26,551 nucleotides of DNA from Bacteroidetes bacterium GWF2_29_10 (GCA_001768555.1 MEOD01000027.1:1-26551); one strand, 5' to 3'; positions 4,378 to 26,551 are shown, numbered from the stretch's first letter. The notes: generated from the sequence alone by a model not told the origin. Program-made: numbers and translations.

Positions 4378-5049
4378 ATGACACATCTTGATGTTGCTCT
4401 ACCAATCATAAAAAAAGATTTGTTAAAAATGATGATGATGGTAAAATCTCAAGTTTCTTTAAGCAAAGATTGCTTAGAAAAATTTGATAAAGAATTGGCT
4501 TATGAAGTATTATCTAATGAAAAAAAAATAGACGCATTTGAGTTAAAATTAAATATGGATTGTGAAAATGTATTAGCTCTATACAATCCTGTTGCTATAG
4601 ACTTGAGGTTTGTTATGGCTTCTTACACCATAACTGCTGATTTGGAAAGAATAGCAGATAAAGCCGCCAGTATCGCACGGTTTGTTACAGATTTAGAAAG
4701 TCCTTTAGCAGAAAATATAAGTAAAAAACTCCAAATAAAAGAAATGTATGAACAAGCATTGATAATACTTGATGATGTTTACGATGTGCTTGAAAATGAA
4801 GATACTGCTTTAGGTAGGGAGGTATTTAAAAAAGATGATTTATTAAATAATATTTATAAAAATTCAACGAAAGCATCTCTTGAATTAATAAAAGAAAATC
4901 CAAATAATTCCGCTCAAATACTTTACGCTTATTCTAGTGTAAAGAAAATTGAACGCATTGGAGATTTAGCCAAAAGCATTATTGAGGAAATAATTTTTTA
5001 TATAGAAGCAAAAGTAATGAAGCATTCAAAATTAGATAAAAATAACTAG
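4378..5049 (+). CDS. phoU: Phosphate transport system regulatory protein PhoU
   Basis: 223 aa and all-helical. Two PhoU repeats with conserved Asp/Glu-x-x-x-Asp patterns (DLERIADKA, KIERIGDLAK). The last gene of the pst operon. Confidence 0.85.
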   Translation: MTHLDVALPIIKKDLLKMMMMVKSQVSLSKDCLEKFDKELAYEVLSNEKKIDAFELKLNMDCENVLALYNPVAIDLRFVMASYTITADLERIADKAASIARFVTDLESPLAENISKKLQIKEMYEQALIILDDVYDVLENEDTALGREVFKKDDLLNNIYKNSTKASLELIKENPNNSAQILYAYSSVKKIERIGDLAKSIIEEIIFYIEAKVMKHSKLDKNN

Positions 5050-12677: not shown

Positions 12678-15515
12678 ATGAAGAAATATCTACAATTTTG
12701 TGTACTAAATGTAATAATTCTGGTGTTTTCTATAAATGTTAATGCTCAATTAATTTATGACTTTAATGCTGACACTAATGCATTAGTACAAAAATTAATG
12801 AGTAATGCTTGTGTTACGTTTAGTAATGCTAAATATAAAGGAGCAAAAGGAGCAAAAGCTATTATAGTAGGTGGCACAAATCCAATGGGAATAAATAGTG
12901 GAATAGTATTATCTACAGGGAATGCTACTGGAGCTGATGCAACTCCTCCATATCCTCAGACTTATAGTATAAACAATAATATGCCAGGAGACGCAGATCT
13001 TGATGTGTTAGCTAGTCCAAATGTTACTTATGATGCATTTGTCCTTGAATTTGATTTTGTACCTTTAGCGGACAGTATATTTTTTAAATATTTATTTGGT
13101 TCGGAGGAATATCATGATGGATTTGATGGTTCTACAGCTTTTGATCTTTTCGCATTCTTTATAAGTGGTCCTGGAATAACAGGATTAAAAAATGTAGCAG
13201 AAATACCAGGAACATCAATTGAGGTAGGGCGAGGAACCATTAACAGAACCGTAAATACTCAATATTTTCATGATAATAATATGCGAACACAAAATGCTTA
13301 TAGAGGTTGGACATCAGTATTTCGTTCGGGAATTAAATTACAGATAGGTCAAACATACCATGCAAAACTTGTTATTGCAGATGTGAGTGATTATTCGATT
13401 GATTCAGGAGTACTTATAGAAACAATAGAATGTCCTCCTCCAGCTCCCTTGCCACCAGTATTTACAGTAAGCACATCATCATCAAGTAATCCAAATACAC
13501 CACAAAATTCATTCTATGAAGGATGCGAAAATATTATAATAAAAGTTAAAGCAAACAAAAAGTTAACAGCAGCAACAACGGTATCAATAGCCTTGAGTGG
13601 CACTGCAACAAATGGAAGTGATTATTCGGCAAATGCAACTTCTGTAACTATTCCTATTGGGAGTGATTCTGCTATTTTTACATTAACAATACTAAATGAT
13701 AATTCAACAGAAGCAGATGAAACAATTAATGTTGATTTTAATCCTTCATCATTAAGTATTCCGCCGATAATAGGATTAATAATAAAGGATGTTACACCTA
13801 TTCAAATAGATTTAACTTCGGATTATACTATATGCCAAGGCAGTACTATAAATATAAGTCCTTCAATCAGTGGAGGGCGTCCAGATTATACATATGTATG
13901 GGAAAATGGGAAAACAACTGAAAGTATTTCAGAAAGTCCCAATATAGAAACAACTTATAAATTAACGGTTACAGATGCTTGTAACAATACTAATACAGCA
14001 CAAACTGTTGTAAATATAGAAATTGGGTCTGCTGAAGCTGGCGACGATCAAAGTATATGCTTTGGGAAATCAGCAACATTAACATCTAATCCTGCAAGCT
14101 CTTACATATGGAGCAATGGAGGCATAACACAATCAATAACAGTAAGTCCAAATCAAACAACAAAATATTATTTATCGGCTACTTCTAATTGTATGGCTGT
14201 TGATAGTGTTATTGTTACTGTTTATCCAATAATGCCAGTAAATATTATTACATCTAAAAATACAATATGTTTAGGAATTGAAGCAAACATGTCATCAAAT
14301 GCAACTGCAAATACATATTTTTGGTCGTCTATACCAAATGATACATCCTTAACTAACCAAAATACAAAAAGCTCGGTTATTGCAAAACCAACAATAAGTA
14401 CTATCTACAGTCTTATGATAACAGATTTTAATGGGTGTTCAAATACGACAAGCATAAAGATAAATATAGATAATGGTCCTAGTGCTTCATTTAGATTTTC
14501 GGCACCAAAAGGATGTGTTTCATCTCCAATAGACATAACTAGTAACACAACTGGTAATTACATATACTTATGGAATTTTGGCTATGGCAGGTTAATTTCG
14601 GGAAACAATGGAGCATCTAATAAGGTTGCATGGGATTCATTAGGGTTTATGAAAGTATCTTTGCAGATAAAGTCAGAGAATGGATGTCTTGGAGATATTA
14701 TTACAGATTCTATTGAAATATTTGATATTCCGATGGTCGATTTTTATGCTATTGATACAGCGGGTTGTCCTCCGTTAGTTGTTTTGTTTAATAATGATTC
14801 ATTAAACCAATATCCAGATGCAGAATATTATTGGGAATTTGGAGATAAAGGAACATCTTCGGACAAAACACCTGTGCATTTATATAAAAATTCAGGCAAA
14901 TTCTCAGTAAGTCTAAAAATAACAAATGCGGGTTGTAGTAATTCGGAAACAAAAAACAATATCATAAATGTTTACCCTGTTCCTAAATCAGAATTTGTTG
15001 TAAAGCCAGAAGAAACATCTATATTTTATCCAGATGTAGTTTTTTATGATGTTACAAAAAATGCGGACTCCACCACTTGGTATTTATTATGGAATGATTC
15101 TACTTTTGGGAACACCCAAAAATTTGAATATGAATTTCCAGATACTGGTGTACAACAATTTTATTTAATAGCAATAAATAGTTTTGGATGTATTGATTCT
15201 GGATTAGGAGAAGTCCTAATTAAAGAAGATTTTACTCTTTACCGTCCAAAATGTTTTACACCCAATGAAGATGGATTAAATGATGTATTTGACATAAAAG
15301 GAATTGGGATAATTGAATTTAAGCTCACAATATATAATAGATGGGGTGAAATTATATATTACTCTGAAGATCTTAATGAAAAATGGAATGGTAAATTAAA
15401 AAATACAGGAAAACTAGTTCAAACAGGTATTTATCCTTATAGAATAGAATTTAAAAATAGTTTGTTAAAACGTAGCACAATATTTGGTCATGTTATGGTT
15501 TTATATAAAAAGTAA
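12678..15515 (+). CDS. T9SS-secreted multidomain surface protein/adhesin (choice-of-anchor L-like N-domain, Calx-beta, 3 Ig-like repeats, 2 PKD, T9SS type-B C-terminal domain)
   Basis: 945 aa with a signal peptide. Calx-beta-like block (aa ~285-355, G..DY...L.F..GE....I.V). Three tandem ~70-aa Cys-containing repeats (aa 377-598). Two PKD signatures (WNFGYG..., YYWEFGDKGTSSDKTPVHLY). C-terminal CFTPNEDGLNDVF...YNRWGE motif of the gliding-motility/T9SS type-B sorting domain. Confidence 0.8.
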   Translation: MKKYLQFCVLNVIILVFSINVNAQLIYDFNADTNALVQKLMSNACVTFSNAKYKGAKGAKAIIVGGTNPMGINSGIVLSTGNATGADATPPYPQTYSINNNMPGDADLDVLASPNVTYDAFVLEFDFVPLADSIFFKYLFGSEEYHDGFDGSTAFDLFAFFISGPGITGLKNVAEIPGTSIEVGRGTINRTVNTQYFHDNNMRTQNAYRGWTSVFRSGIKLQIGQTYHAKLVIADVSDYSIDSGVLIETIECPPPAPLPPVFTVSTSSSSNPNTPQNSFYEGCENIIIKVKANKKLTAATTVSIALSGTATNGSDYSANATSVTIPIGSDSAIFTLTILNDNSTEADETINVDFNPSSLSIPPIIGLIIKDVTPIQIDLTSDYTICQGSTINISPSISGGRPDYTYVWENGKTTESISESPNIETTYKLTVTDACNNTNTAQTVVNIEIGSAEAGDDQSICFGKSATLTSNPASSYIWSNGGITQSITVSPNQTTKYYLSATSNCMAVDSVIVTVYPIMPVNIITSKNTICLGIEANMSSNATANTYFWSSIPNDTSLTNQNTKSSVIAKPTISTIYSLMITDFNGCSNTTSIKINIDNGPSASFRFSAPKGCVSSPIDITSNTTGNYIYLWNFGYGRLISGNNGASNKVAWDSLGFMKVSLQIKSENGCLGDIITDSIEIFDIPMVDFYAIDTAGCPPLVVLFNNDSLNQYPDAEYYWEFGDKGTSSDKTPVHLYKNSGKFSVSLKITNAGCSNSETKNNIINVYPVPKSEFVVKPEETSIFYPDVVFYDVTKNADSTTWYLLWNDSTFGNTQKFEYEFPDTGVQQFYLIAINSFGCIDSGLGEVLIKEDFTLYRPKCFTPNEDGLNDVFDIKGIGIIEFKLTIYNRWGEIIYYSEDLNEKWNGKLKNTGKLVQTGIYPYRIEFKNSLLKRSTIFGHVMVLYKK
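13806..14471 (+). repeat. Three tandem intragenic ~210-bp repeats encoding Ig-like/SprB-like modules inside the adhesin gene
   Basis: The repeat pattern C.G......S....Y.W.NG......V.P..TT.Y.L..TD..C...D.V.V.I recurs three times, at aa 377-448, 449-518 and 519-598. Confidence 0.6.
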
Positions 15516-15519
15516 AGTT

Positions 15520-15990
15520 ATGATAAAAATTAAATTTCACATAGGAATAATAATTTTGTTTATTACAACATTTTCTTTAGCACAAAAGGCTCCAACACCA
15601 GAATTGAACTTGCAAATTGTAAAAATTATAAAGAGTAATATTAATAAAACTATCGACAGAGGAGAATGTTGGGATTTGGCAAATTTAGTTCTCTCTGAAA
15701 CTAATGCAAAATGGGACCATCAATTTGGATTTGGAAGAGAAATAAAGTACTCCATAGATAGTATTTATGCTGGCGATATTATTCAGTTTACTAATGCAAA
15801 GATACAAATGGCAGATGGAGTTGTTTGGCGTTTTGGGCAACATACTGCTATAATTTATGAAATAGATAAAAATAAAAAAATAAAAATAGCACACCAAAAC
15901 GTGAATAATGTTCGCAAAGTTATAATAAGTGATTTTGAGCCAGAAGGATTAATTGAGGGCAAACTTAAAATTTATAGACCTATAAAATAA
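15520..15990 (+). CDS. Small secreted protein, possibly a papain-like (CHAP/NlpC-P60 superfamily) hydrolase
   Basis: 157 aa from the ATG at 15520. The upstream ATG at 15484 would overlap the adhesin stop. Signal peptide MIKIKFHIGIIILFITTFSLAQ. A conserved-looking Cys (GECWDL) and a downstream His in a hydrophobic strand (QHTAIIYEI), consistent with a Cys-His papain-like dyad. The assignment is weak. Confidence 0.4.
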   Translation: MIKIKFHIGIIILFITTFSLAQKAPTPELNLQIVKIIKSNINKTIDRGECWDLANLVLSETNAKWDHQFGFGREIKYSIDSIYAGDIIQFTNAKIQMADGVVWRFGQHTAIIYEIDKNKKIKIAHQNVNNVRKVIISDFEPEGLIEGKLKIYRPIK

Positions 15991-16113: not shown

Positions 16114-17811
16114 TTAAAGTGTTATATCTTCATTTGCTTTTTTTTTTGCATCTAATATTTGCTTCCTATCAATAGTTCTAGGTATTTCTTTATTAAGAGC
16201 TATATTATAATTTTTAATTGCATTAATTTTGTCATTTTTTAATCTATAATACTCTCCAATAACATAATAAGTATAATAATAATTAGGATTTAAGTTTCGA
16301 TAATAATTTATCTCCTTATCAGATATATTCATTACATTATCGTTTGACATGTAATACTTAAGCATTTTTGTTTTTATTTTATATTCTTTATATTTTTTAA
16401 ATTCTGGTGATTTCAAAAAAGCATCTTCCTTTATCGTTAAGGATGAATCGTATAAATCATCTAAAACATTTACATGTTTGCCAAATATATCATTAAGATT
16501 GTATGATATGTAAGCACCTAATTGATATGGATTTGATGATACCCAAATTTGCAATTTTTCTGGTTTAAAAATTACAGAGTGATGTGCAATAAGTTGGTTT
16601 ATTGATTTTTCATTTCCCATACCAATATCTTTATTATTTTTTCCTTTTTGATCTCTTAATATTAAGGCAAATGACTCTACATTGTGTTTTTTGCATTTAT
16701 TTAACAATTCTGCTGTTCTTTCCCAACGATATAAAGAAGCGCCTTCTTTTAAACTTTGAATGTTTATCTCTGTGTTTTTTAATTTTTCACCCTGATAATG
16801 ATTAGTTAGTATTAATTGATTAGAACCTGTTTCAAATAATCCTATATTATCTGTTGATTTTTCTATAACAACCGTTTTTTTATCTACAGAAGAACTAATT
16901 AAAAAAGATTCAGAAACAAAAATTTGCATTTTATTAGCTATAGCATAAGCTTCATCTATATTCGAAGCATATTGCAGTATCATTCTTGCTAGAATTGAAA
17001 CAGGCGTTCCTGTAGAAGTTGGGATTTTTGATTTTGCAGCATTTAAAGTCACGACAAGTCCTTTATCATTCATTCCAGATATAACTCCAATCATGCCTCC
17101 CCATGTAATGGTACAAAATTTATGTCCACTATCAGGCTCATAAAACGCTATTATTTTATTTTCCGCGAAGTCATCACCTGAAGAGAAATCCATATTTTTG
17201 CCAATTAATATTGTACTGTCTTCAGATTTATCTCCACTAACTTCAAAAGCCGTACACCCCACTAAATTCATATTTTGCAAAGTATGCCCAATATCATGAG
17301 CAGCATGATAATTAAGCATTCTATGATAAGCAGGACCTATGTAATTAAATTTATCAGAGGCATGTAATGAAACACCATATATTTCTTTTTGAAATTCCAG
17401 AGGTATATGTTCATCTATATTTCTATTAAACCACAATATAAAATACTTTAAAACATTTAAATACATTTTGGAAGGAACCATTTCGTTTATATTCTCTAAA
17501 AATATAGCTTCTTGTTGTTCTATTAATTCTGAGGATAGTATTCCATTTTTCACACCTAATTCGAAAGCACTACCTTTAAGGTACATTTCCCATAAACCAT
17601 ATTTATTTTTTTTCAGCCAACTATCTTTACATATGTATACATTGGGGGAAATCTCTTTTCTATAAATATTTTTAGTTATTTTATAATCAACTAAAGGAGG
17701 GTGAACTTTTATAGATAATACAAATACAGAAACAATAATACCTAAGATTACCAATATTATAATCAGTAGTTTAAATAATTTGCTTTTGTAAATAGGCTTA
17801 TTGTTTTTCAT
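16114..17811 (-). CDS. Membrane-anchored C45-family peptidase / Ntn-hydrolase acyltransferase-like protein with a C-terminal TPR-like region
   Basis: 565 aa. N-terminal TM helix. A Gly-Cys autoprocessing-like site (LVG|CTAFEV; Cys186 at nt 17254-17256), as in acyl-CoA:6-APA acyltransferase/C45. C-terminal Tyr/Asn-rich helical repeats (YYTYYVIGEYYRLKNDKINAIKNYNIAL) resembling TPR. It is the last gene of the leftward operon. Confidence 0.55.
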   Translation of the reverse strand: MKNNKPIYKSKLFKLLIIILVILGIIVSVFVLSIKVHPPLVDYKITKNIYRKEISPNVYICKDSWLKKNKYGLWEMYLKGSAFELGVKNGILSSELIEQQEAIFLENINEMVPSKMYLNVLKYFILWFNRNIDEHIPLEFQKEIYGVSLHASDKFNYIGPAYHRMLNYHAAHDIGHTLQNMNLVGCTAFEVSGDKSEDSTILIGKNMDFSSGDDFAENKIIAFYEPDSGHKFCTITWGGMIGVISGMNDKGLVVTLNAAKSKIPTSTGTPVSILARMILQYASNIDEAYAIANKMQIFVSESFLISSSVDKKTVVIEKSTDNIGLFETGSNQLILTNHYQGEKLKNTEINIQSLKEGASLYRWERTAELLNKCKKHNVESFALILRDQKGKNNKDIGMGNEKSINQLIAHHSVIFKPEKLQIWVSSNPYQLGAYISYNLNDIFGKHVNVLDDLYDSSLTIKEDAFLKSPEFKKYKEYKIKTKMLKYYMSNDNVMNISDKEINYYRNLNPNYYYTYYVIGEYYRLKNDKINAIKNYNIALNKEIPRTIDRKQILDAKKKANEDITL

Positions 17812-17836
17812 TTTTTTTATTTTGCTATATTTAACC

Positions 17837-19345
17837 TTATTTTATTTCTCTAATATCTTTAATCAGCTTATTAATATCAATGAATGCAGAGCATGATATT
17901 ATAGCACTTATTGTTACGCCTAATATCCCGTGTAAGCCAACATTCTGTCCTGTAAGATATAAATTTGGAATTTTTGTATATGTTGAAATAAAAGTACTAA
18001 TAGGATCATTGCAATCTTTTATTATTCCATACATAGAGCCTTCAGGTACTCCAGTGTAATCTCTATATGTTAATGGTGTTGAGCTATAAAATGTTTCAAT
18101 AGAATCTTCAATGTTGTTAAATTTTTTGCTAACTAGCTTAATTAATTTATTGCTTCGATCTTTTTTAAATACATTGTAATCCTCATCTCTTTTACCTGTT
18201 ATAGAATCTTTCCATTTTTTAACATCTTCAAATTTCATAGAAGAAATAACAGTAATGCTTTTTGCAAACTCTAAATTGTTCTCATCAGGACAAGTGTATA
18301 GCATATATCCCGTAGGCCAATCTGATTGTTTATAATTATTTGCGGTCCATACATCTTTAGATTTTGAATAATAAATATTTGAGTTTATATGTTTAATTTT
18401 TTTCTTTTTTAAAATAATATATAAAACAAAAGACCCTATTGAGTTTTCTAAATTACTAATTCTTTGTATATAAACTTTCCTTAATTTACCTTCATCCTTT
18501 ATAAGCTGATTTGTTTGTGCAGGATGAATGTTTGAAATAAATGAATTACCAAATACTATTGACTTATCTTTAGTTTCTAGAGATAAAACTCTATTATTAT
18601 TAAAATTTATTTGCAAAACTTCCTTATTTGTGAAAATAACTCCATTGTTTTCCTCAATTACAGATTTAAGAGCATATACTAAATTATCACTGCCATTTTT
18701 AAATTTAAAAGCACTTTGAATAAAAAAAAGATTAATTAAAGCATGAATATGAAAAGGCGTTTTATCAGGAATGCCAGCATATAAACCATTTGTTGCAACA
18801 AGCAATGTTCTTAATTCTGTATTTTCTGTTATACTGTTTATTACTTTACTAACACTTTCTGTCAACATGTCTATTTTCATAATATGTTCATGTTGATTGG
18901 GTAGATTTTTTAAAGCTAAAATGTTTGTGGCATCCCATGCTTGCTGGAGTTTATTGATGTAATTTAATATATTATCTTTTTCTTCAGGAAAGTAAGCAAA
19001 CAATTTCTCTCTGAAATTATTTATTCCCATAGAATAACAATACTCTTTTTCTTCAATAAATATTTTTTCGAAACAATCTTCATCCAACCTAACTAGTTCT
19101 AATCTATCAAGTATTCCAATATATTTGAATATTTTATTTAGTATTTGCCCATTGTCCAAACTCCCTACATAATGCATACCAGTGTTAAACTTACAACCCT
19201 TTCTTTTAAATGTCTGCAAATTGCCCCCTAATTGAGAATGTTTTTCTAAAATGCATACAGAATAACCATTTTTGCTAAGAATAGCACCACATAATAAACC
19301 TCCTAAACCACTACCAATTATCACTACATCATATTTTTCAGACAT
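17837..19345 (-). CDS. FAD-dependent oxidoreductase, phytoene-desaturase (CrtI)-like family, copy B
   Basis: 502 aa. N-terminal dinucleotide-binding motif VVIIGSGLGGLLCGAIL...LEK...GG. Conserved C-terminal block LYLTGQNVGLHGILG. Paralogous (~45-50% identity by eye) to the adjacent upstream gene. Confidence 0.75.
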   Translation of the reverse strand: MSEKYDVVIIGSGLGGLLCGAILSKNGYSVCILEKHSQLGGNLQTFKRKGCKFNTGMHYVGSLDNGQILNKIFKYIGILDRLELVRLDEDCFEKIFIEEKEYCYSMGINNFREKLFAYFPEEKDNILNYINKLQQAWDATNILALKNLPNQHEHIMKIDMLTESVSKVINSITENTELRTLLVATNGLYAGIPDKTPFHIHALINLFFIQSAFKFKNGSDNLVYALKSVIEENNGVIFTNKEVLQINFNNNRVLSLETKDKSIVFGNSFISNIHPAQTNQLIKDEGKLRKVYIQRISNLENSIGSFVLYIILKKKKIKHINSNIYYSKSKDVWTANNYKQSDWPTGYMLYTCPDENNLEFAKSITVISSMKFEDVKKWKDSITGKRDEDYNVFKKDRSNKLIKLVSKKFNNIEDSIETFYSSTPLTYRDYTGVPEGSMYGIIKDCNDPISTFISTYTKIPNLYLTGQNVGLHGILGVTISAIISCSAFIDINKLIKDIREIK

Positions 19346-19346
19346 A

Positions 19347-20840
19347 TTAAGCTTTTTTTATTTTGTTAAACAAATAATCCCTACCTATTATTTCAGAACA
19401 AGTAAGAGCAGCTCCTATTGATACGCCCAATATACCATGCATATTCAAATTTTGGCCAGTAAAATATAAATTTTCAATGCGTGATCGAGGTGTAATTATA
19501 GTTGATAGCAAATTATCTTGTTTTTTTAATATTCCATAAGCAGAACCATTTGGAGTCGCTGTATAATCTCTATAAGTAAGAGGTGTTGATGTGTAATAGC
19601 ATTCTATTTTTTCTCTTAATCTTGGAAATTTCACTTCTATAAAATCTATAAGTTTTTCAGCTTTCCTTTGCTTAAACTCTAAATATTCATCACTTCTATT
19701 TTCGGTATAAGTGTCTTCCCATTTTTTCACCTCATTATATTTCATATACGTTATAGCAATAATTCCATTTGCCCATATATCTGAATTTGAATTAGACGGG
19801 GTGTATAACATGTAGTGTTCCGGCCAATATGCTTCATTATAGTTTGTAGTCCATGTATTTACTTTTGAAAAATGGTGGTGATTATAATTAAGATAAGGAA
19901 ATTGTTTTTTTTTCAAAACTATGTATAAAGAAAACATTCCTATAGTATTTTCAAGAGAACTTATTCTTGACTTAAATGCCATTTTGTTTATATTTCTATC
20001 AACTATATCTAGTGTTACTTTAGGATGTATATTTGAAATTATTTTTTTTGCATAAATTCTCTCCCCGTCTTCAGTATCAACATAATCAACTTTTTTATCA
20101 CCACCAAAAGACACGACCTTTTTAGAAAGTCTAATAATCCCTCCATTTTTATATATTTCATCTGCAATTCTTGCTGCTAATTGAGATCCTCCATCAATAA
20201 TGCGCCATGCGCTTTTTATAAATGTATAATTTATTAAAGAATGAATATACAATGGAGTTTCAGCTTGAACTCCAGCATAAAGCGAATTCATACCTCCAAG
20301 TATATTATTAAGTTTATTATTTGAAGTTATTGAAGATAAGTAATTATATGCATTAGTTTGTAACTTATTTAAACCAATTGCGGATAAATCCATAGAATCA
20401 TTTAATGTATAAAAAGGAAACGAATTACATACATGTTTCATATCCTTTATATATATTTTAAGATTTTCTTTTTCTTTAGGAAAATATTCTGCTAACGATT
20501 CTATAAAATTATTATAACCTTGAGCAAATGGGTATTCATTGTTATCTTCCGAAAAACTAATACGTTCAAAACCTTCTATATCCAAGCGCTTCAACTTAAG
20601 CTTATCTATTATGTTAAAATACTTAAAATATCTATTTAAAACCTCCCCTTCCCCTAAACCTTCTGTATAATTTAACCCAGTATTAAATATTGTTTTATTT
20701 TTTGCAAAAGACTGAATACACCCTCCAATCATTTTATTTTTTTCTAACAAGCAAACTTTCAACCCCTCCCTACTCAATATATTTCCACACAATAGTCCAC
20801 CAAGACCTGCACCAACTATAACAATGTCATATTTTTCCAT
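19347..20840 (-). CDS. FAD-dependent oxidoreductase, phytoene-desaturase (CrtI)-like family, copy A
   Basis: Start chosen at M22 (MEKYDIVIVGAGLGG; 20840). The ORF is open to 20903 but that would overlap the upstream gene by 77 nt. GxGxxG motif. C-terminal LYFTGQNLNMHGILG block. Tandem paralogue of 17837-19345. Confidence 0.75.
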   Translation of the reverse strand: MEKYDIVIVGAGLGGLLCGNILSREGLKVCLLEKNKMIGGCIQSFAKNKTIFNTGLNYTEGLGEGEVLNRYFKYFNIIDKLKLKRLDIEGFERISFSEDNNEYPFAQGYNNFIESLAEYFPKEKENLKIYIKDMKHVCNSFPFYTLNDSMDLSAIGLNKLQTNAYNYLSSITSNNKLNNILGGMNSLYAGVQAETPLYIHSLINYTFIKSAWRIIDGGSQLAARIADEIYKNGGIIRLSKKVVSFGGDKKVDYVDTEDGERIYAKKIISNIHPKVTLDIVDRNINKMAFKSRISSLENTIGMFSLYIVLKKKQFPYLNYNHHHFSKVNTWTTNYNEAYWPEHYMLYTPSNSNSDIWANGIIAITYMKYNEVKKWEDTYTENRSDEYLEFKQRKAEKLIDFIEVKFPRLREKIECYYTSTPLTYRDYTATPNGSAYGILKKQDNLLSTIITPRSRIENLYFTGQNLNMHGILGVSIGAALTCSEIIGRDYLFNKIKKA

Positions 20841-23800
20841 AATTTTTCTTTCTAAGTACATATGTAATATTCGACGTGTAATACGAATTGTCAAAAATTT
20901 CACAAATTAATTCATTTGCTTTTGCAAAATCTTGTATCTTTTTACCAGAAATAAACGTCAGTTTACATTTAGTTTTATTAAATTTAAATATTTTTGTTGA
21001 TTGTATTTCTGTTAATTTTGTTCTTTTTGTTCTTTTTTTCAAATCTGCATCAGCATCTCTAATAATAATCATTCCATCGGAAGAAACATTTCTAACACAT
21101 TCAGACAAAACATTTATTTGTACATTTTCTGGCATATAATGCAATACATCATTTAAAATAAACACATCTGCATTAGGTAGCTTACTTTCACTTATATCTA
21201 GGACTTTAAAATTAAGGCAATCGTCTTTAATCGGAATATTGTTTGCAATACTAATTTTCTCTTCATCATAGTCTATACCTGTTACTATTCTGTTTTTAGA
21301 AACCATTCTAAGCATACAAGAAAGAAATCCATAACCACAACCAATATCCACAATATTAGAATTCATAGGGATTATATTATTATAAAATTTATATTGTTTT
21401 TCCATTCTTATTTTCACTCTGAGATACCATTCTAAAACAGGACCTTTATAAATATATTGATGAATCAACTGATGATAATAGAAATCTGGGGTTTCTTTTT
21501 CTAATCGTAGTTTTGCATATTCGCTTCTATAAAATTTCAACACTTTTTTTGTTTGTTCTCGATAAGTAACACCGCATGATGTTTGCATTGGAGTTTCAAC
21601 CTCAAATTTATCAAACACTTTGATAGTTATATGTCCTGATTTTAGAAAAAAATCGGTTTTAGACAAACAGTTATAAGCTCCATGTATCATTATAGGCTGG
21701 ATAGCTATACCTAATTCATGTGCGATATTAAATGCTCCTTGTTGAAATCTGTTAATTTCGCCATCAAAAGTTCTTTTTCCTTCTGGGAAAATTAATATAG
21801 AATATCCATCATTAACTTTTCTTTTTATTTTTTCAATGTCATTATTTAAACCTTTGTATGCTGGATAAAATTCGGCATATCTTATTATAAAGCCATAAAA
21901 AGGATTATTCCAAACCCATTGATTTGTAAATACTATAATTTTAGGATTTAACATTAATAGTAAAACAAGGTCTAAATGAGATTGATGATTAGAAATAATT
22001 ATAGAAGGTTTTGAAAAATCTAATTTTTGCATATCTATATAATCTCGTTTAATTGTAATATTAACATAAACAATAAATTTAGAGAATATATAGATAATAT
22101 AGCTCATAAAATATTTTTTTGACTTTTTTCTTATTGGTGTACAGAAAAGTATAGGCAATAAAGTTGTCATCGTTATAGAACCTAATAAAAATATAAAAAA
22201 TGAACCTATAGATATTATAGAATTAACTAAATTGATAGGTTGAATTCTTTTGTTTTTTCCATTATTTATGATAAAATTAAAAAATAAAGGCAATATCGTA
22301 TATGAAAAAACTAAAGCAGAACTAATACCAATAATTGAGACTATTGCAATTGATTTAAGTGCAGGATGTTCAGCTAATATCAAAACTCCAAATGCTCCTA
22401 TAGTAGTTATAGCAGAAAGAAAGACTGATAATTTATATGAAACAAGGCTAACATTTCCGTATTTATAATTATCTATCAAACCACTCATTATAAATATACT
22501 ATAATCAAGACCTAGTCCAAATATAAAACTTAAAACAATTACATTAAATATATTAAATTCAATATTAAAAAAGCCCATTAATCCCAAAGTCCACAACCAA
22601 CATAATGCTACGGGTATAAAAGTTATTATTGCTATTTCAATTCTTCCAAAAAAGATTAACAATAAACAAAAAACGACTAACATTGATAATAATGATAATT
22701 TATTGAAATTTTCTTTTAGTATATCAAATAATTTATTTACAAAAATTTGTTTATCAAAAACAATAATACCCTCTATATTATTTAGTTTTTTTAGCAATTC
22801 GTTTTTATGCTTTAAATCAACCTTTAGTATAGATGCAACATAGTAAGTATTATTTGTAGAATTAATATAATTACTAAGAAAATTATTTTTAATTAATTCA
22901 AATTCATCAATTGAAACAGTTGAAAAATTTTTATCAAGCAATTTATAAAAATCATTAAAAGCTGATTCCTTAAAATGAAAAAGTTTTCCCTTTTCTGATA
23001 TAGTTTTTTTTAATGTTTTTTTGTTATTTTTATCCCAAAACTTATTCCATTTATCAATCTTCTGTTGCTGCATATAAGCACTCATTATTAAATCTGATGC
23101 AGAAGATACAGCTGTTATTGTCGCATCTGAAATGAGCTTTTGAAATAAAGTCTTTTGTTGTTCACTTTTTCTTATTGCAGAATCGAGTATTGTATCCTGA
23201 GCTATTACATATACAGCGCTATTAGCTACGGAACTTATGCTTTTTAAATTATTTTCTGCTGTAGAAAGTTTTTTTGTAATGTAATTAAGAGTTCCAATAT
23301 CACTATTAAATTTCAAATTTTGTGAACTAAAAATAAAAAAAACAGATAAAATCATTATTGATATTATTAAAATTTTATTTTTATCATAATTTAATCCTAT
23401 AATTTTTTCCAAATATTTTGTTTTAAAATTAGGAGACTTTATATTAGCAACTTCTTTTAGAAAAAAAGGCATTATTACTAAAACAGATAATGAAGTAAAT
23501 GTAATTGCAAAAGCAGCAAACATACTTAACTGTTTAATAGCTTCTGAATGTATAACAAATAAGCACATGAAAGTAGCAGATGTAGTCATACTACTAAGAA
23601 GAACTGGAAGAGCGATCTTCTTTATTGTATTTTTTACCGAGTTACTTTCTCTATAATGAGTAAAAGCATGTAATGGGTAATCAACAGAGATACCTATTAG
23701 TATAGCTCCTATTCCTAAAGATATTATAGAAATAGCACCATTAACAATAGACAACATTGCTAATGATAAAAGAGCTCCTATAGCAACTGGTAAAAATAAT

Positions 23801-24687
23801 AATAAAATTACCTTAAAACGTCTAAAAAACAACCAAAATATTATAGACAAAAATATTATGGATATTGAAACTGTAATTATTATATCCTGCTTTATCTGGG
23901 TTGAGTTTGCTACAGCAACTGCAGTCCCCCCATAATATTCAACATTAATATTAGAAGATGTTTTTATAACATTAATCAGTGCATTATCTAATAATGTAAT
24001 TAACTTACTATTCATCTTTGTATTATTTGATGGATAATATGGTTCGATAAATATTAGCAGATGCTTTTGGTCGTTAGTAAATATACACGAATTGTAAATA
24101 GTAAAGTTTTTGTCAATCTGAAAACTTTGAAGTTTTTTTAGAGCTAAAGGAGTTATACTTAAAGGATCATTGAATATATATTTTTTTGTTGCAATTCCAG
24201 TTGGAGAAATTAATACTTTTAAATTGTTTTCAAGTTTATGTTCTATATATTTATCATTAAGAAGAGATTGAATATGCTCATAATCTTTATCATCTAAATA
24301 TAAAGGTAAATTATTGTATATAAAATCATAAACATCAAGAAATGTCTTTTCATTTATCTTAAACTTAATTTCTTTTATGTATGTAGAATCTTTTGATAAT
24401 TGAGCGACTAAATTATCTGCTACCTCTATTAATTTATCTGGATTATTAGAAATACTATATTTAAATGATATGTTAAATATTATCTGACTGGCAAGTTTTG
24501 AATTGTTAAATGCTAAATTTAATTCATCTATTCTACTATCTTGAGGAACTATTGAGTTAATATTTTCTTCAAAATCTAATCTAAATAGGAAATACACCGA
24601 AACTATTAACAAACATGCAAGCATAATTAAAGAAGCAAGTTTGTGTTTATATAGAAAATTGTTTATACTTATAAAAAAGTTACCCAT
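20827..24687 (-). CDS. Tri-domain fusion protein: MMPL/RND-like exporter + PlsC-type lysophospholipid acyltransferase + class I SAM-dependent methyltransferase
   Basis: 1286 aa. Residues 1-~830 form two periplasmic domains, each followed by a TM bundle (GISVDYPLHAF and GLGLDYSIFI GxxxD-type motifs of MMPL/RND exporters). Residues ~870-1060 are an acyltransferase with the HX4D motif ISNHQSHLD (nt 21969-21995) and FPEGKR block. Residues ~1090-1286 are a methyltransferase with VDIGCGYGFLS (nt ~21320-21350) and an acidic motif II. Confidence 0.7.
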   Translation of the reverse strand: MGNFFISINNFLYKHKLASLIMLACLLIVSVYFLFRLDFEENINSIVPQDSRIDELNLAFNNSKLASQIIFNISFKYSISNNPDKLIEVADNLVAQLSKDSTYIKEIKFKINEKTFLDVYDFIYNNLPLYLDDKDYEHIQSLLNDKYIEHKLENNLKVLISPTGIATKKYIFNDPLSITPLALKKLQSFQIDKNFTIYNSCIFTNDQKHLLIFIEPYYPSNNTKMNSKLITLLDNALINVIKTSSNINVEYYGGTAVAVANSTQIKQDIIITVSISIIFLSIIFWLFFRRFKVILLLFLPVAIGALLSLAMLSIVNGAISIISLGIGAILIGISVDYPLHAFTHYRESNSVKNTIKKIALPVLLSSMTTSATFMCLFVIHSEAIKQLSMFAAFAITFTSLSVLVIMPFFLKEVANIKSPNFKTKYLEKIIGLNYDKNKILIISIMILSVFFIFSSQNLKFNSDIGTLNYITKKLSTAENNLKSISSVANSAVYVIAQDTILDSAIRKSEQQKTLFQKLISDATITAVSSASDLIMSAYMQQQKIDKWNKFWDKNNKKTLKKTISEKGKLFHFKESAFNDFYKLLDKNFSTVSIDEFELIKNNFLSNYINSTNNTYYVASILKVDLKHKNELLKKLNNIEGIIVFDKQIFVNKLFDILKENFNKLSLLSMLVVFCLLLIFFGRIEIAIITFIPVALCWLWTLGLMGFFNIEFNIFNVIVLSFIFGLGLDYSIFIMSGLIDNYKYGNVSLVSYKLSVFLSAITTIGAFGVLILAEHPALKSIAIVSIIGISSALVFSYTILPLFFNFIINNGKNKRIQPINLVNSIISIGSFFIFLLGSITMTTLLPILFCTPIRKKSKKYFMSYIIYIFSKFIVYVNITIKRDYIDMQKLDFSKPSIIISNHQSHLDLVLLLMLNPKIIVFTNQWVWNNPFYGFIIRYAEFYPAYKGLNNDIEKIKRKVNDGYSILIFPEGKRTFDGEINRFQQGAFNIAHELGIAIQPIMIHGAYNCLSKTDFFLKSGHITIKVFDKFEVETPMQTSCGVTYREQTKKVLKFYRSEYAKLRLEKETPDFYYHQLIHQYIYKGPVLEWYLRVKIRMEKQYKFYNNIIPMNSNIVDIGCGYGFLSCMLRMVSKNRIVTGIDYDEEKISIANNIPIKDDCLNFKVLDISESKLPNADVFILNDVLHYMPENVQINVLSECVRNVSSDGMIIIRDADADLKKRTKRTKLTEIQSTKIFKFNKTKCKLTFISGKKIQDFAKANELICEIFDNSYYTSNITYVLRKKNYGKI

Positions 24688-24688
24688 C

Positions 24689-25870
24689 TTATTTTTTTCT
24701 AAATAATTTTAATAATAAAAATGAAAATAAACCAAAAAAAACAGACAACATAAACGCAAAAACAATACTCCCTATAAGATATTGTTTTAAATTAGCCTTA
24801 ACTCCTTCAATGCTTAATTCTACATCTACATTCCAACTCCCATTTTCCAGCACATAACTTCCCGTAATATAACTTAAATAAAGAATAATAGGTAACAATG
24901 GAGGGAAACTAATATTTGCAGCAAGAAAGAAAATAGCCTTATTTAATTTGAAAAAATGTGCTATTATAAAACCAATTATAAGCTGAAATCCCCATATAGG
25001 AACAATACCCATAAATACACCAAATGCTATAGAGGAAGCGATTATATGATTTGAAGTATTAACATCTAATATATCTTCTTTAATTATTTGTTTGAAAGTT
25101 TTTTTTCTGTATACATTAAGTATTTTTTTTGGGCGGTAATAAATTAGAGCCATTGTTACCAAAACAATATTTAATAAGCTTATTCTTAAAAAATCTTTAA
25201 AAGGACGAAAATGTGATATTCTATTTTCTTTTTCAGGGTAATAAACGTCTATAGGTACGCACAAAACATCAATATTTGCCCAAGAAGCTCTAACAATTAT
25301 TTCTAACTCAAATTCATATTTGCCCGAAAAAAACTTTATTGATTTCATTTCTTTTAATGGATATAACCTATATCCTGATTGTGTATCGGGTAATTCAACA
25401 CCAGTTTCTATATTAAACCAAAAATTAGAAAACTTATTTGCAAAATTGCTTTTAGATGAAATATTAGAGTTTTTAAGCGAGCGGGAACCTATGATAATAG
25501 AATTAGAATTACGATCAAGGGCTTCCAAAAAAACGGGTAAATCTTTAGCAAAATGCTGTCCATCAGAATCAATTGTAATAGCATAATTAAAGCCTGCATC
25601 TAATACATTTTTAAAACATGTACGTAAAGCGTATCCTTTTCCTTTATTTATTGGATATGAAATAATATTAATTGTCGAAAACGGTTTAATTATATCTAAA
25701 GTATTATCAGTGCTTCCATCATTAATTATAAAGATATCATCACAATATGGGATTAAATCTTCAATAACTTTTTTTATAAATGTAGCATTATTGTATGTTG
25801 GCATTACAATGCAACACTTTTTTTGCCTAAATATATTTTTACATTGATTTGCGTTATTATTTGAATTCAC
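24689..25870 (-). CDS. GT2-family glycosyltransferase with a C-terminal polytopic membrane domain
   Basis: 393 aa. N-terminal GT-A motifs (CIVMPTYNN, INDGSTDNT, DSDGQH). The C-terminal ~150 aa contain four hydrophobic helices. Overlaps its neighbours by 1-14 nt (operon). Confidence 0.75.
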   Translation of the reverse strand: MNSNNNANQCKNIFRQKKCCIVMPTYNNATFIKKVIEDLIPYCDDIFIINDGSTDNTLDIIKPFSTINIISYPINKGKGYALRTCFKNVLDAGFNYAITIDSDGQHFAKDLPVFLEALDRNSNSIIIGSRSLKNSNISSKSNFANKFSNFWFNIETGVELPDTQSGYRLYPLKEMKSIKFFSGKYEFELEIIVRASWANIDVLCVPIDVYYPEKENRISHFRPFKDFLRISLLNIVLVTMALIYYRPKKILNVYRKKTFKQIIKEDILDVNTSNHIIASSIAFGVFMGIVPIWGFQLIIGFIIAHFFKLNKAIFFLAANISFPPLLPIILYLSYITGSYVLENGSWNVDVELSIEGVKANLKQYLIGSIVFAFMLSVFFGLFSFLLLKLFRKK

Positions 25871-26219
25871 CTTTAAACTTTAGATATTTTATTTCGTCTG
25901 AATATAATAAGCCTGTAACTGATATTCTCCCCGTATCTGTATATTTATAATTAATAATGCTTTCTATTTGAGCTTTTTCAAGCGGATTATGCATTGCTAA
26001 AAATTTAACTTCACTTAATAGCTCTATCATCAAATTTATTTTTAATTCTTTTTTTAATATTTCTTTTATAATTAATATTTGGCAAACACCTGGTGTAATT
26101 GGGATATTAGGAAAATGTCCTTTATATATTAAGTTGTCTTTATTTAGTATAATACTTGCACGTATTTCACTATCTGTTTTGCTTATGATATTATATTTGT
26201 AAAGATCATTAATTAGCAT
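25857..26219 (-). CDS. Hotdog-fold 3-hydroxyacyl-ACP dehydratase-like protein (FabZ/ApeI-ApeP-like)
   Basis: 120 aa. The block GHFPNIPITPGVCQILIIKE matches the FabZ/FabA active-site motif GHFPxxPxxPGV (His in the catalytic position). Small hotdog size. Confidence 0.65.
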   Translation of the reverse strand: MLINDLYKYNIISKTDSEIRASIILNKDNLIYKGHFPNIPITPGVCQILIIKEILKKELKINLMIELLSEVKFLAMHNPLEKAQIESIINYKYTDTGRISVTGLLYSDEIKYLKFKGEFK

Positions 26220-26514
26220 TGTTTTGAACTTTTATTAATTTTAAGTTTATACTTAATCTTATTCTGCTATGGCTTATGTTTATTGAATCCAATAAATCTT
26301 CAGAATTTTTTACAATAGATACATTTATTGTTTTAAAAAAACCAGCTTTCTTATATATTCTGAAAACATCAAAATTCGAACGGTAAAAATAAAAATATTT
26401 ATCCGAAAGATGTATGAATTTTAAAATTTTAAAATCATTTACCTCTTTTATTGAAATCTTATTTGTTTCTATTTTTGACAAATCTTGAACAATGCTTCTA
26501 AAGTCACTTTGCAA
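26209..26514 (-). CDS. Hypothetical protein, first visible gene of the leftward operon; may be N-terminally incomplete or extend upstream
   Basis: 101-aa ORF overlapping the dehydratase start by 11 nt. No family recognised. Only 37 nt remain to the window edge, so the true start is uncertain. Confidence 0.3.
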   Translation of the reverse strand: MQSDFRSIVQDLSKIETNKISIKEVNDFKILKFIHLSDKYFYFYRSNFDVFRIYKKAGFFKTINVSIVKNSEDLLDSINISHSRIRLSINLKLIKVQNNAN

Positions 26515-26551
26515 AATGTTTATTATCTGTTTTTTGTTAAAAAAGTCTTTA

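What the first reader, a model, noticed from the sequence alone, without database searches (positions are those of the whole stretch)
20827..24687. A single 1286-aa polypeptide fusing an MMPL/RND-like exporter, an HX4D lysophospholipid acyltransferase and a SAM methyltransferase
Directly visible in the translation are two periplasmic-loop/TM-bundle halves with GxxxD-type motifs (GISVDYPLH, GLGLDYSIF). Next comes a cytoplasmic PlsC-type domain with ISNHQSHLD and FPEGKR. Last comes a Rossmann methyltransferase with DIGCGYGF. Making, methylating and exporting an acylated lipid in one protein would be a compact 'acylate-methylate-export' machine. I am not aware of this tri-domain architecture being characterised. 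There is no internal stop or frameshift, so it is not an assembly merge of three genes.
Basis: seen in the sequence. Interest (0 to 1): 0.75.

Follow-up and report, generated by a model that had tools for sequence, protein, structure and literature searches.

The report
Flexirubin-cluster exporter–acyltransferase–methyltransferase fusion protein
The 1286-residue three-domain protein is real, but it is the standard, already catalogued (though never biochemically studied) lipid exporter/acyltransferase/methyltransferase of flexirubin-type pigment gene clusters, found in hundreds of Bacteroidota species.

Summary
Window 20827-24687 (-) is one uninterrupted 1286-codon ORF. It is not an assembly artefact. 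The identical protein occurs in at least 4 metagenome assemblies, and at least 557 species genomes encode relatives. The best 80 match over the full length.

The claim of novelty fails. This is the orthologue of gene U (FlxU/Fjoh_1078) of the reference flexirubin cluster. [quoted passage not shown] It sits in the conserved order KS-CLF-deacetylase-LolA2-LolB2-ApeI dehydratase-GT2/DUF2062-fusion-CrtD-like oxidoreductases-C45 acyltransferase.

The transporter aligns end to end with E. coli ApeM. The acyltransferase aligns with ApeD starting at ApeD's own membrane anchor. The fused methyltransferase is not ApeB. Fuller clusters carry a separate ApeB orthologue (52% identity to the E. coli protein). 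C. pinensis flexirubin carries only one methionine-derived methyl. The fused methyltransferase has decayed in Flavobacteriia. Its substrate is the one open question.

Most likely function (inferred): acylation and methylation on the cytoplasmic face, coupled to proton-driven export towards LolA2/LolB2.

The parts
20827..24687 (-). [quoted passage not shown]
22264..24687 (-). Residues 1-808: ApeM-type MMPL/RND lipid exporter. It has 12 TM helices and two periplasmic domains (about residues 36-263 and 457-660).
   Evidence: Hydropathy. AF2 model of residues 1-1090, pLDDT 85.8, pTM 0.77. Foldseek best hits are HpnN and MmpL3/4/5. hhalign against E. coli ApeM gives 99.7% probability, E 1.7e-26, covering ApeM 10-763 of 772.
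23668..23694 (-). TM4 motif GISVDYPLH (D336-Y337), half of the putative proton relay
   Evidence: Asp-Tyr pairs of MmpL3/MmpL5 are described in PMC12122801.
22492..22518 (-). TM10 motif GLGLDYSIF (D728 invariant, then Y729), the second half of the putative proton relay
21496..22263 (-). Residues 809-1064: ApeD-type PlsC acyltransferase. It includes its own two-helix membrane anchor (helices 820-849 and 854-875) and the catalytic core.
   Evidence: Pfam PF01553. 5KYM by sequence, E 1.7e-11, and by fold, TM 0.82. ApeD by BLASTP, 34% identity, E 3e-14. hhalign 98.4%, starting at ApeD residue 12.
21970..21990 (-). PlsC block I, NHQSHLD (HX4D catalytic dyad H901/D906)
   Evidence: Invariant in 41 and 75 homologues.
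21772..21789 (-). PlsC block III, FPEGKR
   Evidence: P968, E969 and R972 are invariant.
20830..21495 (-). Residues 1065-1286: class I SAM-dependent methyltransferase domain, not of the ApeB type
   Evidence: Pfam. PDB matches are generic class I MTs. AF2 of residues 800-1286 gives pLDDT 94.2, pTM 0.90. No similarity to the ApeB type.
21325..21348 (-). SAM-binding motif I, DIGCGYGF. GIDYD (21265-21279) and DVLHY (21136-21150) follow.
   Evidence: Conserved in the ~1280-aa homologues and degenerate in the 1205-1229-aa Flavobacteriia forms.
24689..25870 (-). GT2 glycosyltransferase with a DUF2062 membrane domain (FlxT type). Its N-terminal half is homologous to ApeJ. Its stop codon lies 1 nt before the fusion's ATG.
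   Evidence: It lies directly upstream of the fusion in 66 of 74 related loci.
25857..26219 (-). ApeI-like hot-dog dehydratase (120 aa)
   Evidence: Precomputed Pfam PF22818 on the identical gene in L001.
26209..26551 (-). C-terminal part of LolB2 (flexirubin-type). The gene runs off the window end.
   Evidence: The full 218-aa protein in L001 scores 83.1 on NF053540 LolB2_flexi, cut-off 60.
19347..20861 (-). CrtD/CrtI-like FAD oxidoreductase 1. Its start overlaps the 3' end of the fusion.
   Evidence: An oxidoreductase lies directly downstream of the fusion in 60 of 72 loci.
17837..19345 (-). CrtD/CrtI-like FAD oxidoreductase 2
16114..17811 (-). C45-family autoproteolytic acyltransferase/hydrolase (AAT; FlxW type)
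   Evidence: Pfam AAT. NF040521 scores 210.6 against a cut-off of 85.

Best explanation
The ORF is the Bacteroidota version of the attachment-and-export module of aryl-polyene/flexirubin-type pigment clusters. It is orthologous to gene U (FlxU/Fjoh_1078) of the reference flexirubin cluster.

Anatomically it is an ApeM-type RND lipid exporter. After TM12, its cytoplasmic C-terminus runs straight into an ApeD-type PlsC acyltransferase. That acyltransferase keeps its own two-helix membrane anchor. A class I SAM methyltransferase follows and is predicted to pack rigidly against the PlsC domain. Both enzyme domains therefore sit on the cytoplasmic face beside the transporter's membrane domain.

Proposed mechanism:
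1. The PlsC domain (H901/D906) transfers a cluster-made acyl chain, probably a polyene from an ACP thioester, onto a hydroxyl of an inner-leaflet lipid acceptor. By analogy with ApeD the acceptor is a lyso-glycerophospholipid.
2. The MT domain methylates an as yet unknown position of that lipid or of a precursor.
3. The RND part is driven by the proton-motive force through the TM4/TM10 Asp-Tyr pairs. It extracts the finished lipid and passes it to the periplasmic LolA2 and the outer-membrane LolB2 encoded just upstream.

Shown here: domain identities, intact catalytic motifs, conservation, synteny, topology and orthology to ApeM and ApeD. Inferred: the substrates, the order of steps, direct channelling, and the hand-over to LolA2/LolB2.
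For: Single ORF with three domains.

The name is already in UniRef, and a published table of the reference cluster shows the same flanking genes. LolA2_flexi and LolB2_flexi pass NCBI's curated cut-offs. lolA2 and lolB2 are reported as always lying in flexirubin-type loci (PMC11885536). Gene order is conserved: GT2-DUF2062 lies upstream in 66 of 74 loci and an FAD oxidoreductase downstream in 60 of 72.

Orthology of the parts. ApeM: BLASTP is collinear over residues 17-732, E 2e-16; hhalign gives 99.7% across the whole of ApeM. ApeD: 34% identity, E 3e-14; hhalign gives 98.4% starting at ApeD's N-terminal anchor helix. ApeJ's C-terminal half shows no similarity.

Motif integrity and conservation. 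AF2 models are confident: pLDDT 94.2 and pTM 0.90 for PlsC+MT, 85.8 and 0.77 for MMPL+PlsC. Fold matches are HpnN/MmpL for the transporter and TmPlsC, including its N-terminal helices, TM 0.82.

Roles of ApeD, ApeM, ApeL and ApeN in Xenorhabdus and E. coli come from 10.1101/2020.12.19.423268 and PMC8253772.

Tight operon coupling: a 1-nt spacer upstream and an overlap downstream.
Against: No biochemical or genetic data exist for this protein or for any orthologue. Substrates are inferred by analogy with a proteobacterial pathway whose final lipid differs from flexirubin.

The window's locus lacks ACP, ketoreductase, aryl-starter genes, DarA/B and an ApeB-type OMT on the 34-kb contig. It is therefore not shown that this organism makes an aryl polyene at all.

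The MT has no assigned product. C. pinensis flexirubin has one methionine-derived methyl, and the ApeB orthologue most likely accounts for it.

Model coordinates could not be inspected, so the geometry between the PlsC active site and the transporter's entry is untested. NCBIfam HAE3 and HpnN scores are far below their cut-offs.
Confidence: 0.72

Rival explanations
1. Assembly or gene-calling artefact: three adjacent genes were merged into one ORF.
For: In one related contig (L008) the MT is called as a separate overlapping 248-aa gene. Three other loci have interrupted ORFs.
Against: The identical 1286-aa protein occurs in at least 4 assemblies. 83 of 87 loci have an uninterrupted ORF of at least 1200 codons. 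The 4 exceptions are long-read assemblies, and L008 also has a second gene split. At least 557 species genomes have relatives, and the best 80 are collinear over residues ~1-1280. AF2 predicts a rigid PlsC-MT unit with pTM 0.90.
Confidence: 0.01
2. The PlsC domain is the missing flexirubin esterifying enzyme. It would join the aryl-polyenoyl chain to the phenolic OH of the dialkylresorcinol, rather than acting as an ApeD-like lysophospholipid acyltransferase.
For: The enzyme that makes the flexirubin ester bond is unknown. Schoener et al. only proposed FlxW. PlsC-family enzymes make O-esters from acyl-ACP or acyl-CoA donors. The fusion is universal in flexirubin-type clusters.
Against: The domain is homologous to ApeD of DAR-less proteobacterial clusters, including its anchor helix. 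The conserved neighbours (GT2-DUF2062, deacetylase, LolA2/LolB2) point to a glyco/phospholipid product. No DarA/DarB was seen on the window's contig.
Confidence: 0.13
3. In this organism the fused MT acts as the aryl-ring methylase, substituting for ApeB/FlxJ.
For: The window's locus has no ApeB-type OMT on its 34-kb contig. The fused MT is intact.
Against: In fuller clusters the intact fused MT co-occurs with a true ApeB orthologue (52% identity, E 2e-140), so the two are not redundant. The fused MT has no similarity to the ApeB type and lacks its dimerisation domain. The rest of the genome was not searched.
Confidence: 0.1
4. The MT domain is a non-catalytic structural or regulatory module that supports the PlsC domain and may only bind SAM.
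For: In Flavobacteriia the domain persists as a truncated remnant with a destroyed SAM loop, while MMPL and PlsC stay conserved. AF2 predicts rigid packing on PlsC. The known flexirubin has no spare methyl.
Against: In this protein and in about 100 relatives, motif I (DxGCGYGF), GIDYD and DVLHY are strictly conserved. The MT domain is as conserved as PlsC: 63% against 68% identity to the nearest homologue. This is the pattern expected for an active enzyme.
Confidence: 0.08

Closest known systems
[quoted passage not shown]
   Same: It has the same three domains in the same order and a similar length (~1280 aa). It has the same neighbours: DUF2062 glycosyltransferase upstream, phytoene-desaturase-like and Ntn/C45 genes downstream, and KS, CLF, deacetylase and LolA further upstream. 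Chitinophaga homologues match over residues 1-1280 at 35-39% identity.
   Different: The window protein is at most 56% identical to any other sequence and comes from an uncultured groundwater Bacteroidota lineage. Its locus is a reduced version without ACP, KR, ApeB-OMT, thioesterase or CoA ligase. Neither this protein nor the reference proteins have been characterised. Schoener 2014 only lists an acyltransferase and a predicted exporter among flxP-flxU.
ApeM + ApeD (+ ApeB) of the proteobacterial aryl-polyene lipid pathway (E. coli CFT073, Xenorhabdus doucetiae)
   Same: The transporter part is collinear with ApeM over ApeM's whole length. The acyltransferase part is homologous to ApeD, including the N-terminal anchor. 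The context is shared: KS/CLF, ApeI-type dehydratase, LolA-like carrier and an ApeJ-like GT2.
   Different: In Proteobacteria these are separate genes that are not even adjacent. The fused MT is not ApeB (E 0.014 and 2.1), and the true ApeB orthologue is a separate gene in full Bacteroidota clusters. Bacteroidota clusters add a NodB-type deacetylase, CrtD-like flavoproteins and a C45 acyltransferase. Their GT2 carries DUF2062 instead of ApeJ's C-terminal half.
Lipid-exporting RND transporters HpnN and MmpL3/4/5 (including the MmpL5-AcpM complex)
   Same: They share the 12-TM fold with two periplasmic domains (Foldseek E 1e-22 to 1e-15). [quoted passage not shown] MmpL5 binds the acyl carrier protein AcpM on its cytoplasmic face (PMC12122801). 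That is a non-covalent version of docking lipid biosynthesis onto an RND exporter.
   Different: Sequence similarity is low (10-16% identity). The scores are far below the NCBIfam cut-offs for HpnN and HAE3. None of those transporters carries covalently fused enzymes.
Thermotoga maritima PlsC (PDB 5KYM)
   Same: HX4D and the FPEGxR blocks are shared. The fold matches with TM 0.82 over 245 columns, nearly the whole chain, so the N-terminal two-helix membrane motif is included.
   Different: TmPlsC is a free-standing housekeeping LPA acyltransferase. Here the domain is tethered to an exporter and an MT and sits in a pigment cluster.
LplT-Aas type fusions (NCBIfam PRK08633, acyl-[ACP]--phospholipid O-acyltransferase, 1147-aa profile)
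   Same: The PlsC region and its preceding membrane segment hit this profile (residues 776-1006 against profile 322-556, E 4.5e-11). From my own knowledge, that family fuses a lysophospholipid transporter, a PlsC-type acyltransferase and a third enzyme. It uses the same design logic of transporter plus acyltransferase plus helper enzyme.
   Different: The transporter class is different (MFS, and an importer/flippase). The third domain is different (acyl-ACP synthetase). The transport direction is opposite. The score is far below the cut-off of 1221 bits.

Membership tests
RND superfamily, MMPL-type lipid exporter (Pfam PF03176) | 12 TM helices with large periplasmic loops between TM1-2 and TM7-8 | tested here: met
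   Hydropathy. AF2 secondary structure. Foldseek hits to HpnN and MmpL3/4/5.
RND superfamily, MMPL-type lipid exporter (Pfam PF03176) | Conserved Asp(-Tyr) proton-relay residues in TM4 and TM10 | tested here: met
   D336-Y337 and D728-Y729 are present. D728 is invariant. Where TM4 has N instead of D, TM10 gains a second D. The reference for MmpL pairs is PMC12122801.
RND superfamily, MMPL-type lipid exporter (Pfam PF03176) | Profile score above the curated threshold | tested here: met
   PF03176 scores 44.2 bits against 20.5.
HpnN / HAE3 equivalogs (NCBIfam TIGR03480, TIGR00921) | Score above NCBI's curated cut-off | tested here: not met
   107.7 against 751.85, and 110.5 against 351.9. It is related to these families but not a member.
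ApeM-type aryl-polyene exporter ('APPE' family as cited by Grammbitter et al.) | Full-length collinear homology to ApeM, and location in a cluster with KS/CLF, an ApeI-type dehydratase and a LolA-like carrier | tested here: met
   hhalign 99.7%, E 1.7e-26, covering ApeM 10-763 of 772. Context.
ApeM-type aryl-polyene exporter ('APPE' family as cited by Grammbitter et al.) | Export of an aryl-polyene lipid to the outer membrane | not testable with these tools
   This needs genetics and lipid localisation. Even for ApeM it is inferred, not shown.
PlsC/LPLAT acyltransferases (PF01553) | HX4D catalytic block and the FPEGxR block | tested here: met
   N900, H901, D906 and P968, E969, R972 are invariant in 75 sequences.
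PlsC/LPLAT acyltransferases (PF01553) | PlsC fold with an N-terminal two-helix membrane anchor | tested here: met
   AF2 helices 820-849 and 854-875 followed by the alpha/beta core. 5KYM matches with TM 0.82.
PlsC/LPLAT acyltransferases (PF01553) | Acyl transfer to a lysophospholipid | not testable with these tools
The acceptor and donor are unknown.
Class I SAM-dependent methyltransferases | Glycine-rich motif I, an acidic residue after beta-2, and the Rossmann-like fold | tested here: met
   DIGCGYGF, GIDYD and DVLHY are conserved. Pfam Methyltransf_31/11/12/25 score above their cut-offs. Fold hits have probability 1.00.
ApeB/FlxJ-type aryl methyltransferase | Dimerisation2-like N-terminal domain plus a Methyltransf_2 core, with sequence similarity to ApeB | tested here: not met
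   There is no dimerisation domain. BLASTP E is 0.014 against E. coli ApeB and 2.1 against the Bacteroidota ApeB orthologue. That orthologue is itself 52% identical to ApeB.
Flexirubin-type biosynthetic gene cluster | LolA2/LolB2, KS+CLF, ApeI-type dehydratase, deacetylase, GT2-DUF2062, fusion, CrtD-like oxidoreductase and C45 enzyme in the conserved order | tested here: met
Flexirubin-type biosynthetic gene cluster | Genes for the chromophore itself: ACP, ketoreductase, tyrosine ammonia-lyase/CoA ligase, ApeB-type OMT, DarA/DarB | tested here: inconclusive
   None is on the 34-kb contig that holds the window.

The most novel reading that the evidence does not exclude
Flexirubin may not be the only or the final product of these clusters. 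Under this reading, the conserved module makes a still-undescribed methylated glyco- or phospholipid anchor for polyene chains. It would be a Bacteroidota counterpart of the Xenorhabdus aryl-polyene lipids. The module consists of GT2-DUF2062, the NodB-type deacetylase, PlsC, the orphan fused MT and the C45 acyltransferase. The fused MT would methylate that anchor, for example the amine freed by the deacetylase, by analogy with NodC/NodB/NodS/NodA. The last acylation and methylation would take place on a platform covalently docked to the RND exporter. The reduced locus of this uncultured lineage could make such a lipid without any aryl chromophore.
Probability: 0.2. Interest if true: 0.6.

Novelty: new member of a known kind. 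Interest (0 to 1): 0.28.

Why it matters
Aryl-polyene/flexirubin clusters are among the most widespread bacterial biosynthetic gene clusters. How their products are anchored and exported is still only a model. The Bacteroidota fusion is natural 'Rosetta-stone' evidence that the ApeD-type acylation and ApeM-type export steps work together physically. It is also an attractive single-polypeptide target for cryo-EM and biochemistry.

The only real open point found here is the fused methyltransferase. It is not ApeB. It is strictly conserved in most orders but decayed in Flavobacteriia. The known flexirubin structure does not account for it, which hints at an undescribed lipid product. None of this makes the window's gene unusual. 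It is the ordinary, database-named member of its family.

Tried and rejected
(1) Assembly-merge hypothesis: rejected.

(2) Fused MT as the ApeB equivalent: rejected by pairwise tests and by finding the true ApeB orthologue as a separate gene.

(3) Fused PlsC as ApeJ's C-terminal acyltransferase half: no similarity.

(4) HpnN or HAE3 membership: scores are far below the cut-offs.

(5) Literature searches for the fusion. 'aryl polyene + MMPL + acyltransferase + methyltransferase' gave 0 papers. Fjoh_1078/FlxU are mentioned only in Schoener 2014. The 'trifunctional...' name appears only in one taxonomy paper's table.

(6) Foldseek against afdb50 was not available. Model coordinates are not exposed, so the distance and orientation between the PlsC active site and the transporter's lateral entry could not be measured. 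The protein exceeds the 1200-aa limit, so it was modelled as two overlapping pieces.

(7) PDB sequence and fold neighbours of the MT are generic small-molecule O-, N- and C-methyltransferases and give no substrate hint.

(8) tRNA and Rfam scans of the window found nothing.

(9) One call failed on a frame error and one on a length limit. One script failed on a file name.


Full report
OBSERVATION. The ORF listing shows one ORF at 20827..24687 on the minus strand. It has 1286 codons, an ATG start and no internal stop. Pfam finds MMPL (two stretches), PlsC-type Acyltransferase (residues 888-1001) and several class I methyltransferase models (about 1109-1222), all above their gathering thresholds. 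NCBIfam adds weak, sub-threshold similarity to the HAE3, HpnN, BstA and actII RND families.

NOT AN ARTEFACT. The exact protein is deposited as a hypothetical protein of 'Bacteroidetes bacterium GWE2_29_8'. It is encoded on contigs of at least four ENA assemblies made with different assemblers. More than 100 clusters at 90% identity share the ~1280-aa three-domain layout at 35-56% identity. The best 80 match collinearly over residues ~1-1280. They span Bacteroidales, Marinilabiliales, Chitinophagales (including C. pinensis), Sphingobacteriales, Cytophagales, Aureispira and Flavobacteriales. In 83 of 87 loci the ORF is uninterrupted. The four exceptions are long-read assemblies. One of them (L008) also has a neighbouring gene split. 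A search of 1.84 billion representatives with the PlsC-MT half alone gave 490 clusters at E <= 1e-30. Most are ~1260-1300 aa with the match at ~810-1280.

WHAT IT IS. The window holds only the 3' part of a minus-strand operon. The longer contig L001 shows the full order: KS, KS-like chain-length factor, NodB-type polysaccharide deacetylase, LolA, a 218-aa protein, ApeI-like dehydratase, GT2-DUF2062, the fusion, two CrtD/CrtI-like FAD oxidoreductases and a C45/AAT-family enzyme. NCBIfam places the LolA and the 218-aa protein above the curated cut-offs of LolA2_flexi (204 against 125 bits) and LolB2_flexi (83 against 60). De Smet et al. report that lolA2 and lolB2 are always found in flexirubin-type loci (PMC11885536).

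A 2026 taxonomy paper tabulates the reference flexirubin cluster of F. johnsoniae and C. pinensis. [quoted passage not shown] The flanking genes are T (DUF2062), V (phytoene desaturase), W (Ntn hydrolase), and P, Q, N and O (deacetylase, LolA, KS, KS-like). This is the same order as here (PMC12968099). UniRef gives the same name to the Carboxylicivirga homologue P0054. Across the fetched genomes GT2-DUF2062 lies directly upstream in 66 of 74 loci, and an FAD oxidoreductase lies directly downstream in 60 of 72. In the window the upstream stop codon is 1 nt from the fusion's ATG, and the downstream gene overlaps the fusion's end. So the gene is the FlxU/Fjoh_1078 orthologue. The architecture is already catalogued. 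No experimental work on it was found. Schoener et al. only list an acyltransferase and a predicted exporter among flxP-flxU, which may be involved in export 'by yet unknown mechanisms'.

RELATION TO THE CHARACTERISED APE PATHWAY. I fetched the E. coli CFT073 ape cluster (L005). The transporter part aligns with ApeM over ApeM's whole length. BLASTP covers residues 17-732 against 19-705 with E 2e-16. The family profile against ApeM gives 99.7% probability, E 1.7e-26, covering ApeM 10-763 of 772. The acyltransferase part matches ApeD at 34% identity, E 3e-14. The profile alignment gives 98.4% and starts at ApeD residue 12. ApeD's own N-terminal hydrophobic helix therefore aligns with fusion helix 817-850. 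ApeJ's C-terminal half shows no similarity. The GT2 neighbour matches ApeJ's N-terminal half, E 2e-32. The fusion is thus ApeM's C-terminus joined to ApeD's N-terminus.

In Xenorhabdus, ApeD is proposed to put a conjugated fatty acyl on the sn-2 position of a lysophosphatidylglycerol. ApeJ is proposed to add GalNAc and the aryl polyene, and ApeM with the LolA/LolB-like ApeL and ApeN to move the lipid to the outer membrane (10.1101/2020.12.19.423268; E. coli genetics in PMC8253772).

THE METHYLTRANSFERASE IS NOT ApeB. The fused MT matches E. coli ApeB only at E 0.014. Fuller Bacteroidota clusters (Carboxylicivirga L006, Chitinophaga and others) contain a separate 355-aa O-methyltransferase in addition to the fusion. 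It has ApeB's Dimerisation2-like + Methyltransf_2 architecture. It is 52% identical to E. coli ApeB over the full length, E 2e-140, and is unrelated to the fused MT, E 2.1. In Xenorhabdus, deleting apeB gives desmethyl lipids. In C. pinensis, [methyl-2H3]methionine labels flexirubin by +3 Da only, in the polyene fragment. So there are two methyltransferases but one known methyl group, and the substrate of the fused MT is unaccounted for.

Across the family the MT's SAM motifs (DxGCGYGF, GIDYD, DVLHY) are strictly conserved in the ~1280-aa forms. They are partly eroded in P0103 and P0104. In the 1205-1229-aa Flavobacteriia forms they are replaced by a truncated remnant with a dead SAM loop (IADDYGE). 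MMPL and PlsC keep 35-40% identity throughout. In the window protein the MT is as conserved as PlsC, at 63% against 68% identity to the nearest homologue. It is therefore most likely active.

STRUCTURE AND TOPOLOGY. Hydropathy gives the canonical RND layout. TM1 is followed by a periplasmic domain at ~36-263, TM2-7, a second periplasmic domain at ~457-660, and TM8-12, ending near residue 806. A basic stretch follows, then two further hydrophobic helices separated by IRKKSKK. An even number of extra segments, or a monotopic hairpin, keeps PlsC and MT cytoplasmic, as the positive-inside rule also suggests.

AlphaFold2 with a 75-sequence alignment gives confident models. Residues 800-1286 reach pLDDT 94.2 and pTM 0.90, so PlsC and MT are predicted as one rigid unit. 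Residues 1-1090 reach pLDDT 85.8 and pTM 0.77. Foldseek matches the C-terminal half to T. maritima PlsC (5KYM, TM 0.82 over nearly the whole chain, including the N-terminal two-helix membrane motif) and to generic class I methyltransferases. It matches the N-terminal part best to the lipid exporters HpnN and MmpL3/4/5, then to Patched/NPC1, and only distantly to drug pumps.

TM4 and TM10 each carry an Asp-Tyr pair, as in MmpL3 and MmpL5, where these pairs form the proton relay (PMC12122801). In a subclade where the TM4 Asp is Asn, TM10 gains a second Asp. That covariation fits a conserved relay. MmpL5 also binds the acyl carrier protein AcpM on its cytoplasmic face. This is a non-covalent precedent for docking lipid synthesis onto an RND exporter.

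MECHANISM (inferred). On the cytoplasmic face the PlsC domain acylates an inner-leaflet acceptor with a cluster-made chain. By analogy with ApeD the acceptor is a lysoglycerophospholipid. The MT methylates an unknown position. The proton-driven RND part extracts the lipid and hands it to LolA2 and LolB2 for outer-membrane insertion. The domain identities, motifs, topology, conservation and synteny are shown. The substrates, the order of steps and direct channelling are not.

CAVEATS. The window's locus is a reduced cluster. No ACP, ketoreductase, thioesterase, ApeB-type OMT, CoA ligase, ammonia-lyase or DarA/B lies on its 34-kb contig. Upstream are a TPR protein and UvrD. Whether this organism makes an aryl polyene cannot be decided here.

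VERDICT. The novelty claim is not supported. This is an ordinary, database-named member of a large Bacteroidota family belonging to flexirubin/aryl-polyene-type clusters. It is uncharacterised biochemically. The residual interest lies in the orphan fused methyltransferase, and in the fusion as evidence for physically coupled acylation and export.

Noticed in passing
Homologues of window 23668-23694 and 22492-22518 (alignment A1): In a subclade (P0075, P0090, P0091, P0093, P0097, P0100, P0103, P0104; P0106 has Ser at the TM4 position) the TM4 Asp is replaced by Asn. TM10 then changes from G-x-D-Y to G-D-D-Y/F. This is compensatory-looking covariation within the putative proton relay.
   Followed up: partly
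Homologues of window 20830-21495: P0103, P0104, P0105, P0107, P0108, P0112, P0117, P0119: The fused methyltransferase domain decays stepwise. It is intact in ~1280-aa forms, partly eroded in 1248-aa forms, and truncated with a destroyed SAM loop in the 1205-1229-aa forms (named examples: Flavobacterium macacae, Aureibaculum). The MMPL and PlsC parts stay equally conserved.
   Followed up: yes
L006:326-1393 and the Chitinophaga loci L021, L023, L028, L040, L041, L047, L060: Full clusters encode two methyltransferases, an ApeB orthologue and the fused MT. C. pinensis flexirubin incorporates only one methionine-derived methyl. The fused MT therefore has no known product.
   Followed up: partly
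Window 16114-26551 and L001:4203-18574: The cluster in this organism is a reduced version: KS, CLF, deacetylase, LolA2, LolB2, ApeI-type dehydratase, GT2-DUF2062, fusion, two CrtD-like oxidoreductases and C45. There is no ACP, ketoreductase, thioesterase, ApeB-type OMT or CoA ligase on the 34-kb contig. A TPR protein and UvrD lie upstream.
   Followed up: partly
Window 17837-19345 and 19347-20861: Two tandem paralogous CrtD/CrtI-like FAD oxidoreductases follow the fusion. In many related loci both queries hit a single gene, so the duplication is lineage-specific. Their role in a polyene or lipid pathway is unknown.
   Followed up: no
Window 12678-15515 and 15484-15990: A 945-aa T9SS cargo protein (Calx-beta, PKD, CHU_C sorting domain) is overlapped at its 3' end by a 168-aa ORF on the same strand. 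That ORF has a CHAP/AIM3-type cysteine-protease fold.
   Followed up: no
Window 585-5049: A complete phosphate-uptake operon, pstS-pstC-pstA-pstB-phoU. The PstC-like protein carries an extra N-terminal PBP-like stretch.
   Followed up: no
L008, L017, L053, L063: These are the only four related loci in which the fusion ORF is interrupted, and all come from long-read assemblies. In L008 a neighbouring oxidoreductase gene is also split. The breaks are probably indel errors rather than real gene splits.
   Followed up: partly
L044 and L078: A full-length homologue sits in a MAG labelled Chlorobiota without any of the usual neighbours (L044). Another sits in a MAG labelled Hyphomicrobiales with a typical Bacteroidota cluster context (L078), which is probably a binning error.
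   Followed up: no
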